Assembly (NCBI GenBank): GCA_964016885.1
Contig: OZ024742.1
Span: 333,684,001-333,748,000, forward strand
Direction: 5' to 3'
Source: Eledone cirrhosa
Lineage: Eukaryota
DNA length: 64,000 bases
Position numbers and translations under genes: made by a program. Of the stretch, positions 1-64,000 are shown piece after piece (the stretch's first letter is position 1; every line of letters starts with the position of its first letter). The notes beneath the pieces are model-generated. The model had not been told where the DNA came from, made no database searches, and worked only from the letters and a program-made list of their open reading frames with translations.

Positions 1-293
1 TCATCAAAAAATTTGTTTATACCATTAAATGTAAAGGATGCGTTGAAGATCATATAGGACAACCTAAACTCACACTCAGAAACATAATAACAATTCATCG
101 CCAACAATTACGAGAACCTACCACAAGACAGATACCACTCAGAGCACATCTAGACATATGCGCAAGTAATAAGACACCAACATTTCAAGTCTTCCCATGT
201 TATCTTTGCGTTGACAATACAGCAGAACAAATATGAATAAATAAGGAAAATATGTTTATTCCAACATATAGACCAGCATTAAATATAGTTTAA
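1..293 (+). pseudogene. PLE GIY-YIG endonuclease C-terminus (Neptune-like), decayed
   Basis: Manual translation from 15: VYTIKCKGCVEDHIGQPKLTLRNIITIHRQQLREPTTRQIPLRAHLDIC...FQVFPCY..I*INKENMFIPTYRPALNIV*. Colinear with ORF 40563-41114; one frameshift and one stop. Confidence 0.85.
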
Positions 294-839
294 CATACAT
301 TATCTTAACACCATAACATGCTAACCATCCAAATAGACACATACATGCACACACACACACACACATAACACCTATATTCGAAAATAAAAACCAGATATAA
401 ATAAACCTTAGCATACGTTAATACCCTAACACTTTAACATGCTAACAATACCCCCCCCCCCCCCCACACACACATATCTCCCTCCTCCATTTCTACTAAG
501 GGAATCATTTTCCTACACACACAAATATATATTATCTCCATCTTAAGATTCTAACCATACTCCCACACACACATACACATACTGATATAACACCCATACA
601 CACACAAACGTATCTCCCTCCCCCACTTCTACTAATAGAATCATTTTCCTACACACACACACACCAGCACACGAATAAATCTATATATCTCTACTTTCTT
701 TATTTCAATAGAAAATCTGAATTTTGATACCTCAGCACATCAGCCATAATCACTAAACCAGAATAATTCTCCCCATCCCTTTTTTCTTGAAGATTATCAA
801 TTGTTTGGCACAAAATTCTCTAAATGGCAACAACAAAAT

Positions 840-1140
840 TCCCCAAATACGGGCGCGAATTTAATGTACTTGTTCACGTGACAGTCATAATTTCATTTAT
901 AACCAATCAAATTACATTTAAAAAAAAACTTTTGAGGCATTTTTTTAAGTAAAAAGAAACTCAAACAGAAACTGGCGCGAAAGTTGATGTACTTATTCAG
1001 GTGACAGCATCAACCAACCAAATTTCACTCATACATGAAAAAACATTATGTTTAAGGCAAATATAATAAGAAATTTGTAACGCGAACTGGCGCGAAATTT
1101 ATTATACTTATTCACGTGAGTCTTCAACCAACCAAATCTC
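840..1140. promoter_or_regulatory. Three imperfect ~120-bp repeats with E2F-like, E-box and CCAAT-like motifs
   Basis: GGCGCGAA(A) at 852, 974, 1089; CACGTG/CAGGTG at 875, 998, 1113; AACCAATC/AACCAACC downstream in each unit. Confidence 0.4.
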
Positions 1141-2044
1141 TTTTCTAAAAATCTAGCATTTCGTGCCACTTTTTTCCATATAAAACAGAAGTAACATTCG
1201 AACACCAACCAGATGCGAAAAAACCCACAAACTCTTCATTTCAATTCTACGCAGTTCAGTTGCATTTTCGATTTCATCTTTTTTCCTTATACTTTCACTC
1301 ATGTAGGACGTCTCGTTTTTTTTTTCACTTTGTAAAAAAAAAACCCTCATTTTCTAATATATATATAAATTTATATTTACTCCTAGAATTAACGATTAAC
1401 TGATTAATTTAATTAGATAATTCTATTGATTGATTAATTGTTTATGTTTGTTTGATAACTTACTGGCTGAGTGCTTAATTCGGTTTGTCTAAAGGGATTC
1501 ATTCCTTTATCTCAAATTGGAATTCACCGCCTAAGCGGGGGTTACCTCCCTTGCAGAAAACCACGTGTCTGTGGCGACATTTAAAGCTACACCATACCCG
1601 CTCAGGCTAAGAACAAAAGACTTGCTGAAGAAGTAAATCCTATGTTCTGTCGTCAAAAACCATTATATTGCAGACTCCTGCAATCGGAATTTGTCGATAT
1701 TGGATTTGCAGGAACTTAGCGCTGATATTATTTGCTGTATATGATGTATATTGTGGATATACGATGTAAGTTATATATTTTGCCCTCAGCCTCACCGCTC
1801 TGTCCGGGTCAGTATAAAATCTTTTCCTGGGTCCTGTATTTTCGTTGCTCTAGTGATGCGGCTGGACTGCCGACCGCTATATCTGATTTGCTAAGCTGTC
1901 TGAACGTAATGTTATTACTCTGGGATCCTTCCTCATCCGAGTGCTAAAGCTACAGACCGATTATGCATTCACTAGCTTGGCCGTGTTCTAAAGCTTCGTC
2001 AATGCTGTACTAAAATTTATATATATATATATATATATGATAAT

Positions 2045-2245
2045 AATGGAGCTGCGGCGCTGCAAATGTGTTACATATGAAAAAGTTTGTCCTCGTCAGT
2101 GGCCTTCCAACCGTCGCAGGCATTTCGTCGCATTAAAGGCCATATACTTCAGGTTGGTGCGAGCAACGGCTAAAAAAAGTCGTTGGGACACGTAAATAAA
2201 GGGGACGCTAGGGTAAACAGACAAAATGGTTTAAGCAGCAGAATT
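2045..2245 (-). repeat. Fragment of the 636-bp repeat family seen at 19260-20139, between (TA)n tracts
   Basis: Shared sequence GGTTGGTGCGAGCAACGGCTAAAAAAAGTCGTTGGGACACGTAAATAAAGGGGAC. Confidence 0.8.
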
Positions 2246-3042
2246 TATATATATATATATATATATATATATATAGAAAAGATGAATATAAATTGAAAGT
2301 GCTTTTATAAAGGAACTTATTAGGTATTGACATATGTTTCTGTAACAGACGGAATATCTATGTATCGCTGCTTGCGTAATCATATATTGTTAGCAAGTAT
2401 TCGATAGCAAATGTATAATCAGTTGTCACTTCTTCAGAGATATTGGATAAATTGGAAAAAATCAGAAAATTGAAGTTTTTATATTAGTTGTAAGAAAGGA
2501 AGAAGAGAGGGGATAGTATAGGACAGGTGGCAATTCAATTTACTGGTAAACAAGTATATAAATGTTTCTAATGAGAATACAATGAGTATATGGTTTATTG
2601 TATCTAAATAAGAATTTTTGGGAGTGCCTATTTTAATCTATACTTGACCAATTGAACAATGGACAGGGCTGGTCGTTTGGTGTAGTAGTATTAATAGATA
2701 TAAAGTGTCAATTAAGGAAGAGGGAGAGGGAGATTTTCACTGCTACTGAATAACAACAATGCTGGTAGCCTGCTGCTATATGTATTAGGGAATTGAATTA
2801 AGAAATCTCATTTTATCTATAGCAGTTTATATTAAATGGTAAAGAATAGAGGAGTTGATAGAAGACTAATAGAGAATGTTAATATGTATTTTGACAATCA
2901 AACGGAGATGGAGACATGCGTTCAATGCTGGTAGTGTTTGTAATATGAAAATGTAGATTTCAAGCGATGGTTACAGTATAACGATCGCCCTATTCTGTTA
3001 TTTAATAAAATATTTTTTGATTTCATAATACAAAATAATTCC

Positions 3043-3400
3043 AACATCATATACAAATGTACTATCGAATAGGATAGCCAGAAGTGGTACTATGTGGGGT
3101 CTACAGCTACCTCCTTCAAATCTCGCCTTTATAGACATCGTTACTCAATAAAACATGAACACCAGCGTTATGTAACAACACTCGCAGACAAGGCTTGACT
3201 GCTGCGCGAAAATAACCAACAATTTAACCTAAAATGGGATATAATACCAGGGCCCCTGCATTCCCACGGACCGGAATTTTGTAAATTATGTAATATGGAA
3301 TTATTTTGTATTATGAAATCAAAAAATATTTTATTAAATAACAGAATAGAGCGATCGTTATACTGTAACCATCGCTTGAAATCTACATTTTCATATTACA
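3043..3400 (+). pseudogene. PLE GIY-YIG endonuclease, decayed
   Basis: NIIYKCTIE*DSQKWYYVGSTATSFKSRLYRHRYSIKHEHQRYVTTLADKA*LLRENNQQFNLKWDII...CKLCNMELFCIMKSKNILLNNRIERSLYCNHRLK; two in-frame stops. Confidence 0.88.
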
Positions 3401-61940: not shown

Positions 61941-62912
61941 TTGTTACATAATAAGGTTATGTTTCCGAGACAATCCAAATTGAATCGACATGGGAACGGA
62001 CGAAGTGTGTGTTCTTGTGTTCTCCAGCCATTCCCTTGTGAGTACCAATTCACCCCCACCGGTCTGCGCAGGCGCAGGTCCGAAGGAAGTTGACCATTAG
62101 CTACCGTAGATTTCAACGAAATTCGCTTAGTCATTTCCCCCTCTCAACCAAGCAATGACCCATTCAGGCCTGTTATATATAGCTTACTGCTACCTACCCC
62201 GTCTGTGGCAGTTAGTCGAAAGTGAGTGGCGATGGGAGAGTGTGAGTATCTATAGGTCTCAATACTACCCCTCATTAAGTATGGACAGTATAATTGACCA
62301 TGAACCTCTAAGAGAAAATATACTTAATTCTAGGCATCATGTTTCACAGTGGAAGTTATGAATGAGAGTTGGAAATTAGAACTAAAAATTAAAAATTAAA
62401 AATTAAAAATTAAAAATCGAAAATCAGAAATATTAAGTATATTTTCTCTTAGAGGTTGAAGGTCAATTATACTGTCCATCCTTAATGAGAGGTAGTATTG
62501 AGACCCATAGAAACTCACACTCTCCCATCCCTACTGGCTTTCGACTGACTGCCACAGACGGGATAGGTAGCAGTAAGCTACATATAACAGGCCTGAATGG
62601 GCCATTGTTTGGTTGAGAGGGGGAACTGACTAAGCGAATTTCGTTGAAATCTGCGGTACCTAATGGTCAACCTCCTCCGGACCTGCGCCTGCGCAGACCG
62701 GTGGGGGTGATTTGGTACTCACAAGGGAACGGATGAAGAATCCAAGAGCACACACTTCGTCCGTTCCCATGTCGATTCAATTTGGATTGCCTCGAAAACA
62801 TAGCCTTATTATGTAACAAGCTGTCTGACGATGTCACGGCACTGGCACACGGAACAGTGTGTTCACTGTCGCCATTGAAATATATATCACAACATTATTA
62901 TTAAAAGACTTG

Positions 62913-63100
62913 GGCGTTGGATTGGCAGTATCGGTAGAGGGTCGGACGCCATGCTTTGCAGCAAAGAGTTACGGCCCTTTATGGTCTGAGTTCAAATCCC
63001 GCCGAGGTTAACTTTGCCTTTCATCCTTACGGGGTCGATAAAATAAAGTACCAGTAATGTACTGAGATAATTGCTGGCCTTGTGCCAAAAGTAGAAATAA
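62913..63100 (+). mobile_element. Full-length ~190-bp SINE with 19-bp TSD
   Basis: TSD ATTATTATTAAAAGACTTG at 62894-62912 and 63100-63118. Confidence 0.92.
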
Positions 63101-63302
63101 TTATTATTAAAAGACTTGAACATCTGAAACTACTCCGCTTTTCCTTATTCGATATTTACTCCGTCACTCCTATGTGGAATAAGTACATTGAGTGCTTGAA
63201 TTGAATTGCATCAATATTTACCCTAAGTATATATATATATATATATATATATATATATAATGGAAAACGAAAAATCAGTGATGAGTCGGAAAACAGTTTA
63301 TT

Positions 63303-63395
63303 ACAAATTACAATTGTTTCTCCGGCGAGCAGCTCTAGGTGTGATCTGTTTGTGGATCGAACCTGACTCTGGATTCGCAAGTTCCTCAGATACGT
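63303..63395 (-). ncRNA. Type I hammerhead motif, GUA (family D)
   Basis: ACGTAT CTGAGGA ..GCGA..TCGC.. GAAAC AATT GTA ATTTGT; inside TA-flanked insert 63260-63660. Confidence 0.65.
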
Positions 63396-63789
63396 TTAGT
63401 GATTTTGAAGCAAATTCTCTTCTGACGAGCCGCGGATTACAGAGTCGGGTCAGATCATTACAGATCGAACCTTCAGCTGATCAGTGGCGAAATGCGCTTC
63501 ACCAAACAATAAACGTAATGAAGGAGTAATCAATCGTCCTTGTTACCTTATTTCACTATAATACACTCTGTCTAGATCTACACCTCGACACTGACGTGAA
63601 CCTAAACATCGAGTACTCACCCGAGTGAACCTACAGCAACTCCAAATTACACTCCCTGGATATATATATATATATATATATATATATATATATATATATA
63701 CATATACATAAAGGGTAAATACCTCGTTCGTTCAGGAATGAACATGGGGTTTGCAACTAGAAAGTGAAACCAGCTCTCTAATCATGTGC

Positions 63790-63961
63790 CTTTACATGTA
63801 ATTCGAAGGACACAGCCTTGTCAAACTCTGTGTCACGCTGAATATTCCGGAGAACTACGTTAAGTGTAAGCTCAATTACTTGCATGTTAATCGATGTGCA
63901 CTCTGTTCTGTTAATCGTTTCAACTGGAATAGTGGTTGTCGTAACAGACGTAGTGCCAGTA
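63790..63961 (+). mobile_element. Probable SINE 3' body
   Basis: CAGCCTTGTCA.ACTCTGTGTCACGCTGAAT..GAGAACTACGTTAAG..GTGCCAGT resembles an abundant octopus SINE body as recalled; not verified. Confidence 0.5.
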
Positions 63962-64000
63962 CACTCACACACTTATACACACACATACACCACACACACA

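What the first reader, a model, noticed from the sequence alone, without database searches (positions are those of the whole stretch)
1..64000. Extreme hammerhead density: roughly 25 intact plus several decayed HHRs from a dozen or more families, nested in or beside (TA)n tracts
Seen: type I HHR folds at 2325, 3901, 6210, 6751, 8103, 8733, 21747, 22105, 26260, 32372, 32781, 40442, 42286, 46470, the five array copies, 50738, 51616, 59449, 61098, 61867, 62820 and 63303, with decayed ones at 11507, 20168, 21397, 31903-31980, 37428, 45442 and 45645. Most host units abut (TA)n and are tandem or inverted. Known: PLE pseudo-LTRs carry minimal HHRs, and some PLE clades prefer microsatellites. Inference: much of the apparently unique DNA between microsatellites is a diverse PLE/retrozyme ecosystem that uses (TA)n as a landing pad, and read-through transcripts on either strand could be cut every few kb.
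Basis: partly seen in the sequence, partly recalled or inferred. Interest (0 to 1): 0.85.

Follow-up and report, generated by a model that had tools for sequence, protein, structure and literature searches.

The report
Hammerhead-laden Penelope debris genome-wide
The window really is studded with hammerhead ribozyme motifs, carried on the ends of many Penelope-like jumping genes and their non-coding derivatives that sit in (TA)n repeats; sampling suggests roughly a quarter of a million across this animal genome, but whether they cut RNA is untested and most lone copies likely cut poorly.

Summary
Confirmed. All 26 sites called intact have type I hammerhead (HHR) topology; 20 pass a strict scan versus 0.1-0.2 in shuffles. 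They come from about 15 families and about 17 insertions. Two lie behind GIY-YIG endonuclease remnants inside the window (Neptune-like, Hydra-like); six more families sit behind Hydra-like ORFs elsewhere; four are non-coding tandem units (retrozymes). Every family tested joins (TA)n at one or two fixed points 50-300 nt 3' of the ribozyme, with ragged or inverted 5' ends: the Penelope insertion signature. The density is genome-wide: 91 hits in 950 kb of spaced samples (about 4 expected), roughly 250,000 in 3.0 Gb, above the largest count I found in print (126,247, axolotl; different descriptors). The window is a threefold local peak, its flanks are ordinary. Rfam gathering scores find none, and 30 of 81 strict hits open stem II with a mismatch. 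'Transcripts cut every few kb' is unsupported: no RNA data, loop 3 is palindromic (dimer type), and published PLE hammerheads are weak or protein-assisted. Known kind of element, unusual abundance; retrozymes bearing the PLE two-end signature is the freshest point.

The parts
2271..4153 (.). Family A: 3' end of a Hydra-like Penelope element with an inverted copy; GIY-YIG C-terminus at 3043-3411 (+) and 2928-3044 (-); HHRs at 3906-4014 (+) and 2437-2329 (-), perfect core, weak stem I
5954..7056 (-). Family B: 541-bp non-coding tandem unit between two (TA)n tracts; HHRs 6283-6217 and 6824-6758 with a long stem III (monomer-type fold)
8006..8161 (-). Family C stub; HHR 8149-8111
8560..8900 (-). 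Family D stub; HHR 8840-8737; family lies 460-590 nt behind a Hydra-like endonuclease in L340-L342
11500..11630 (+). Decayed HHR (core and helices present, no UH triplet)
   Evidence: read; no homologue among held loci
20140..20286 (-). Decayed family-H-like stub, core half lost
21021..21504 (-). Family N (U3-A8 core, long stem III) copy with one core mismatch
21558..22186 (.). Family E inverted pair; HHRs 21789-21751 (-) and 22109-22147 (+), U4C core conserved in the family
26020..26741 (-). Family F: about 620-bp non-coding unit (tandem in L254); HHR 26332-26266, long stem III, U.U at base of stem II
31884..32078 (.). Family I head-to-head stub, both HHRs damaged
32110..33028 (.). Family G inverted pair; HHRs 32408-32378 (-) and 32787-32817 (+)
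37415..37818 (-). Family N copy with one core mismatch, abutting (TA)n
40430..40627 (-). Family H stub; HHR 40527-40448
40660..42480 (+). 5'-truncated young Neptune-like Penelope element between two (TA)n tracts: Zn-finger linker and GIY-YIG (40660-41114), microsatellite-rich 3' UTR, U3-A8 HHR at 42291-42328
45311..45759 (.). Family C-type head-to-head pair, both arms lack G12 (dead)
46436..46875 (-). Family I stub; HHR 46503-46474; family lies 210-320 nt behind Hydra-like endonuclease in L096, L254
46876..49109 (+). 467-bp tandem array (4.8 copies, 99% identical), non-LTR retrozyme; HHRs at 46978, 47445, 47912, 48379, 48846
50593..50858 (-). Family C stub ending in (TA)n; HHR 50792-50746; family extends into a Hydra-like RT-endonuclease in L221
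51445..51947 (+). Family J; HHR 51623-51743, long stem II opened by C.A
59286..59555 (-). Family-H-like copy; HHR 59532-59455, first stem I pair broken
61058..61359 (+). Family K stub between two (TA)n tracts; HHR 61102-61203, stem II opened by A.A
61817..63227 (.). Family L inverted pair (unit about 1.3 kb, non-coding, tandem in L227, L228); HHRs 61935-61872 (-) and 62825-62888 (+)
63260..63425 (-). Family-H-like stub; HHR 63389-63309, weak stem I

Best explanation
These are type I hammerhead motifs sitting near the 3' ends of many Penelope-like retroelement families and of non-coding tandem units, which were likely inserted into (TA)n tracts by Penelope reverse transcriptase-endonucleases starting from fixed internal sites just downstream of the ribozyme, so that even the shortest truncated stubs keep the motif. 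Shown: the motifs, their link to RT/GIY-YIG ORFs in eight families, the fixed (TA)n junctions, ragged and inverted 5' ends, and the genome-wide density. Inferred: the endonuclease nicks (TA)n; reverse transcription starts at one of two internal RNA sites (the PLE 'tail'); new copies landing in old tracts nest families together; the non-coding 467-, 541-, about 620- and about 1,300-bp units borrow this machinery as retrozymes; the ribozyme serves the element's own RNA cycle as a dimer or with protein help, while most isolated stubs are inert passengers that slowly decay.
For: Excess over shuffles 20 vs 0.13-0.20. Same-strand PLE ORF upstream of the HHR: A and M in the window, C (L221, L083, L092, L099), D (L340-L342), I (L096, L254), N (L169, L332), J (L044) and K (L301), the last two single cases. 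Full Neptune-like copy L021 has ORF1, a 777-aa RT-EN ORF, direct plus inverted pLTR and ends in (TA)n; 150 of 150 scored genome matches to the window's EN are 97-100% identical, of 17,219 first-look candidates. (TA)n within 300 nt 3' of the cleavage site in 48 of 56 and 28 of 35 hits in two spaced samples (background 24% two-sided, 14% one-sided); within 100 nt 30 of 56 downstream vs 2 upstream and 14 of 35 vs 3. Two clustered junctions per family: array +226-235 / +298-300, B +169-187 / +262-264, C +55-62 / +138-158, L +55-83 / +133, A +51-71 / +139-174, matching the two internal RT start sites shown for an Anolis PLE (PMC11167929). Stem II left free in family C: 89% Watson-Crick at the first three positions vs 56% in shuffled pairings, 1 of 10,000 reaching it, with A-U/G-C swaps (12 subfamily types seen at least twice, of 52 distinct). 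Loop 3 left free: 32 of 45 perfect palindromes vs 1.6 expected (7 of 15 distinct). Core differs from family majority at 20 of 1,518 positions vs 810 of 32,842 elsewhere.
Against: No cleavage or expression data. Families E, G and H were not tied to any ORF or unit length. PLE clade labels rest on motifs from PMC8557442, not on a tree. Linkage for J and K is a single locus each and could be chance adjacency in nested DNA. Family A, though young and PLE-borne, has a poor stem I in all copies, so the motif may not always be a working ribozyme. Which autonomous family moves which non-coding unit is not shown. Core conservation is modest, copies are not independent, and 4 of 8 families show little or no difference. 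Family loci were the best BLAST matches, so biased to young copies.
Confidence: 0.88

Rival explanations
1. The motifs are active host-level regulators: read-through transcripts and pre-mRNAs on both strands are cut every few kb, shaping the transcriptome.
For: About 90 intact-core motifs per Mb; some families (B, F, N) have long stem III and B folds near the active shape as a monomer; U.U at the stem II base is compatible with cleavage (PMC3088659, PMC7229834).
Against: Most have palindromic short loop 3 and cost 4-10 kcal/mol to open as monomers; PLE hammerheads are weak or protein-assisted and no RNA-seq reads ended at the site in Anolis (PMC4209133, PMC11167929); in inverted pairs the two motifs are on opposite strands and the arms would pair over them (inference); copies decay.
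Confidence: 0.1
2. The non-coding HHR units spread independently of Penelope proteins (LINE-driven, RNA-to-RNA or satellite expansion), and (TA)n grew or was captured afterwards.
For: LINE and SINE remnants are abundant in the window; tandem arrays can expand by unequal crossing over; no shared 3' sequence between a non-coding unit and an autonomous PLE was demonstrated.
Against: Non-coding units show the same two fixed 3' junctions, (TA)n targets and inverted 5' copies as ORF-bearing families (14 of 21 array loci and 7 of 25 family B loci have an inverted upstream copy); they are dispersed on many chromosomes at 99-100% identity.
Confidence: 0.07
3. Chance matches in AT-rich, low-complexity DNA.
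For: With one core mismatch allowed and no score filter shuffles give 14.5 hits vs 33; the U3-A8 pattern matches an A-rich satellite spuriously (L065).
Against: Perfect-core scored hits exceed shuffles about 100-fold in the window and about 25-fold in 950 kb of samples; unconstrained parts covary.
Confidence: 0.01

Closest known systems
Type I hammerheads in pseudo-LTRs of metazoan Penelope-like elements (Cervera and De la Pena 2014, PMC4209133)
   Same: Type I topology near the element 3' end, mostly solo motifs from truncated copies, opposite-strand pairs 100-700 bp apart, palindromic loop 3, many families per genome, U3-A8 core variant.
   Different: Here stem III usually has 2-3 bp plus loop rather than none; G10.1-C11.1 is not conserved (G-C in 4 of 27 multi-member clusters, mismatch in 11); stem II is often 40-100 nt; estimated number about 250,000 vs 9,000 in X. 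tropicalis.
Hydra and Neptune PLE clades (Craig et al. 2021, PMC8557442)
   Same: DKT, CxCX5C, CxxC and CxH motifs in families A and C (Hydra); GxKF, DKG, CX4CxxC linker and CCHH in P0001 (Neptune/Nematis type); insertion into (TA)n; tandem and inverted structure.
   Different: Hydra was described as a small clade of short elements; here Hydra-like remnants are common (many loci). Tails here are about 70-110 nt, not 30-40 bp.
Metazoan non-LTR retrozymes (Cervera and De la Pena 2020, PMC7229834; Li et al. bioRxiv 10.64898/2026.07.22.740005)
   Same: Non-coding tandem units with one type I HHR each, AT-rich, monomers to multimers, U.U at base of helix II as in axolotl HHR_Amex2.
   Different: Units up to 1.3 kb; insertion signature (two fixed 3' ends, (TA)n target, inverted 5' copy) ties them mechanistically to PLEs, which the passages I read support only by co-occurrence and pLTR phylogeny; circRNA not tested here.

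Membership tests
Type I hammerhead ribozyme | Core CUGANGA / GAAA / UH in type I order | tested here: met
   23 of 26 reader sites have the perfect core; 2 U4C and 1 U3-A8, both natural variants in PMC3088659 and PMC4209133
Type I hammerhead ribozyme | Three helices with covariation | tested here: met
   Different stem sequences across 53 clusters; free stem II test 1 of 10,000; stem I weak in A, M, 59449, 63303
Type I hammerhead ribozyme | Paired 10.1-11.1 at base of stem II (canonical form) | tested here: not met
   30 of 81 strict sample hits have a mismatch, 8 an extra nucleotide, 43 a pair; U.U is a known active variant (PMC3088659, PMC7229834)
Type I hammerhead ribozyme | Reaches Rfam gathering score | tested here: not met
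   0 hits; array copies score 35 bits vs 52 for HH9
Type I hammerhead ribozyme | Self-cleavage | not testable with these tools
   no RNA data; needs in vitro assay
EN+ Penelope-like element | RT plus C-terminal GIY-YIG ORF | tested here: met
   P0001 RVT_1 above cut-off, GIY-YIG weak, homologues carry both domains; Hydra-like ORFs in L221, L223, L224
EN+ Penelope-like element | Pseudo-LTRs, partial tandem and inverted 5'-truncated copies | tested here: met
   L021
EN+ Penelope-like element | Tail / two 3' ends and AT-rich target | tested here: met
   bimodal junctions in 5 of 10 families, one main junction in the other 5
Hydra clade | DKT, CxCX5C linker, CxxC and CxH, no CCHH | tested here: met
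   read from translations of L223, L224 (family A) and CxCX5C in L221 (family C)
Hydra / Neptune clades | Placement in an RT phylogeny with reference elements | not tested
   no reference sequences held; labels are motif-based
Non-LTR retrozyme | Non-coding tandem unit with one HHR per unit, dispersed | tested here: met
   467-bp, 541-bp, about 620-bp, about 1.3-kb units
Non-LTR retrozyme | Expressed as circular RNA | not testable with these tools
   no RNA holder listed

The most novel reading that the evidence does not exclude
This genome holds the largest hammerhead population yet counted (about 250,000 C3-G8 motifs plus about 60,000 core variants, 50 or more families, a third with an unpaired stem II base that standard searches reject), and its young non-coding retrozymes carry the Penelope two-start-site, (TA)n-target, inverted-copy signature, which is direct sequence evidence that Penelope proteins mobilise retrozymes; shared palindromic loops could even let different families cleave as mixed dimers.
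Probability: 0.45. Interest if true: 0.62.

Novelty: new member of a known kind. Interest (0 to 1): 0.45.

Why it matters
It shows that hammerhead censuses built on Rfam or canonical descriptors can miss nearly everything in a genome (0 Rfam hits vs 26 motifs here), offers a natural library of ribozyme variants (mismatched 10.1-11.1, U4C, U3-A8, 100-nt stem II), and supplies a young autonomous PLE plus near-identical retrozymes with mapped reverse-transcription start points, which makes the open question of how retrozymes move, and what the PLE hammerhead is for, directly testable. It does not by itself show any effect on host transcripts.

Tried and rejected
Rfam: no family at gathering score; the E-value scan was swamped by microsatellite hairpins and only its top 150 of 380 rows were visible. 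First strict scanner found only 10 motifs because it demanded a 10.1-11.1 pair. G3-C8 and A3-U8 cores: no excess over shuffles. U3-A8 at loose thresholds is noisy; 26 hits came from one satellite locus, L065, which was dropped before the stricter count. Expression: no RNA holder listed; contigs of four runs of unknown kind show the 467-bp unit, with its tandem joint in runs X4 and X5 (a 464-bp version in X1), in three coded organisms and few changes inside the HHR, but say nothing on expression. One tblastn query was off-frame; its Hydra rows were replaced. In one search the family E offset of 148 is an internal short TA run; one search gives the junction (+192-224). Dimer folding favoured the dimer in 6 of 10 motifs, neutral or worse in 4: weak evidence. 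The idea that this window is uniquely dense was rejected. Look-ups of earlier findings by place and by first word set returned nothing.
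Full report
Observation. I wrote a type I hammerhead scanner that tolerates a 2-bp stem III, stem II up to 200 nt and a mismatch or extra base at the foot of stem II. It finds 21 perfect-core hits in the window. With a score filter the count is 20 against a mean of 0.13 (max 2) in 100 one-kb-block dinucleotide shuffles, and 20 against 0.20 in 102 shuffles with the wider version. The bare CUGANGA heptamer occurs 47 times vs 24 in shuffles, the surplus being about the number of hammerheads. 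The decayed sites are decayed. Rfam finds nothing at gathering score.

Are they selected structures? With stem II left out of the pattern, 12 recurring subfamily types of family C (of 52 distinct sequences, 86 matches) pair at 89% Watson-Crick over the first three positions vs 56% when halves are reshuffled (1 of 10,000), with A-U/G-C swaps; related sequences inflate such a test. With loop 3 left free, 32 of 45 hits are perfect palindromes vs 1.6 expected, 7 of 15 distinct loops. Across all held DNA 411 hits fall into 53 clusters, 27 with two or more members (threshold-dependent). In eight families collected by sequence alone the core differs at 1.3% of positions vs 2.5% elsewhere, a modest effect driven mostly by C, H and L; 120 of 138 copies keep an intact core.

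What carries them. The window holds a GIY-YIG remnant at 40660-41114 whose family is young and huge (150 of 150 scored matches 97-100% identical, 17,219 candidates). A full copy, L021, has an upstream ORF, a 777-aa RT-endonuclease with GxKF, DKG, a CX4CxxC linker and CCHH, direct and inverted pseudo-LTRs, and ends in (TA)n: Neptune-like by the motifs in PMC8557442. The 2325/3901 pair flanks the end of a second endonuclease with the Hydra motifs DKT, CxCX5C, CxxC and CxH. Families C, D, I, N, J and K lie 0.2-1.5 kb behind Hydra-like ORFs in other loci (J and K once each). A Nematis-like family with its own HHR is also present (L225, L279). Four families are non-coding tandems: 467 bp, 541 bp, about 620 bp, about 1.3 kb. 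E, G and H are unresolved.

Insertion signature. In two evenly spaced genome samples (TA)n lies within 300 nt downstream of the cleavage site in 48 of 56 and 28 of 35 hits, and within 100 nt in 30 and 14, against 2 and 3 upstream (upstream within 300 nt is also raised, 18 of 35, as expected when short stubs split a tract). In ten families the junction is fixed, with two clusters 70-110 nt apart in five of them; 5' ends are ragged and often inverted. PMC11167929 showed for an Anolis PLE that reverse transcription starts at two internal sites downstream of the hammerhead, giving the optional tail, and that the target is AT-rich. The same pattern in non-coding units is the best evidence that they use PLE machinery.

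Density. Fifty-five plus forty 10-kb stretches gave 56 and 35 hits, shuffles 2.3 and 1.4: 96 per Mb (bootstrap 68-126), or 85 per Mb with a stricter filter (81 hits, 61-112). Chromosomes C1-C4 gave 74 hits in 69 stretches, the others 17 in 26; weighting by length gives about 250,000 in 2,996 Mb (range about 180,000-380,000). U3-A8 and U4C cores add 15 and 7 hits in 940 kb vs 1.5 and 0.25 (L065 left out). Positions were evenly spaced, not random, and small scaffolds were not sampled. The window is about three times the mean; the 200 kb around it gave 23 hits. Five of its hits are one array and several are tandem or inverted twins, about 17 insertions in all. HHR-spanning segments cover at least 22% of the window, all repeats found at least 44%, strict microsatellite 8%.

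Comparison with print. Counts I found: 126,247 in axolotl, about 5,000 in mussel, over 6,000 in Acropora (PMC7229834), 9,000 in X. tropicalis and about 2,000 plus 1,300 minimal ones in S. mansoni (PMC4209133), 235 Rfam matches in giant squid (PMC6962438). My descriptor is looser: 30 of 81 strict hits have a 10.1-11.1 mismatch (U.U 14, C.A 8, A.A 4, A.G 3, A.C 1), which PMC3088659 used as a rejection rule, so the comparison is not like for like; about half would still pass. From recall only, the schistosome Sm-alpha repeat may reach a similar density per Mb. U.U, U4C and U3-A8 are published variants; family-wide C.A, A.A and A.G I did not find. No paper on hammerheads in octopus or on such a census turned up; the O. 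vulgaris repeat paper lists active Penelope families and does not mention ribozymes (PMC13282606). The library lacks most subscription journals; Lunse et al. 2017 on PLE-associated variants was not read. Unchecked notes of this scan describe dense PLE hammerhead populations in other genomes, so high density is probably not unique. The host is an animal; octopod is my recall-based guess.

Function. The architecture is the dimer type: short stem III capped by a palindrome; opening the core costs 4-10 kcal/mol in most short-loop monomers. PMC4209133 saw no monomer cleavage and low dimer cleavage for a minimal motif; PMC11167929 found cleavage only with the PLE protein, not needed for insertion in vitro, and no reads ending at the site; the 2026 preprint saw 1 of 9 dimers cleave. 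So the array and family B, F and N units are plausible active retrozymes, while solo and inverted stubs are likely inert.

What I saw of each paper: PMC4209133 parts 1-2 of 4; PMC11167929 parts 1-2 of 4; bioRxiv 10.64898/2026.07.22.740005 parts 1-3 of 5 (supplements closed; copy numbers per species there may bear on the record claim); PMC7229834 passages and sections 13, 15; PMC8557442 passages and section 11; PMC3088659, PMC6962438, PMC13282606, PMC7761336, PMC6155905, PMC8490949 passages only. No supplements were read.

Verdict. Interest 0.45.

Noticed in passing
window 6-284 (+), continuing from L285 9413-10000: End of a second, diverged Neptune-like RT-endonuclease ORF (40-45% to P0001); no HHR found in its 3' region by my scans.
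   Followed up: partly
window 23487-23199 (-): Faint GIY-YIG remnant (37-43% to P0001), about 1.4 kb upstream of the family E motif on the same strand; link not shown.
   Followed up: partly
window about 52000-56700 (-): Broken LINE with RT domain (RVT_1 above cut-off); looks L1/Tx1-like (label from recall).
   Followed up: partly
window about 12800-14800 (-): Degraded LINE-like coding remnant, no Pfam hit for the one ORF tested.
   Followed up: no
window 19249-20139: 636-bp tandem unit carrying the first half of a hammerhead core but no matching second half; its start recurs at 2038-2243.
   Followed up: no
window 31723-31834: Perfect 55-bp hairpin: head-to-head 3' stub of family N cut inside the ribozyme.
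   Followed up: partly
   Followed up: partly
family A, e.g. window 3990-4020: Six bases on the 3' side of stem II are complementary to the bases just after the cleavage site in most copies, competing with the weak stem I; could be an inhibitory or alternative fold.
   Followed up: no
L021 846-1904: 352-aa ORF upstream of the RT ORF in the Neptune-like element, no Pfam match.
   Followed up: partly
L056 636-2351: 592-bp tandem retrozyme-like array with a U3-A8 core and an inverted copy.
   Followed up: no
window 8150-8350, 9150-9460, 29200-29930, 34975-35390, 49270-49950 and others: Very abundant SINE-like repeat (over 100 matches in held loci), several times inserted into HHR units.
   Followed up: no
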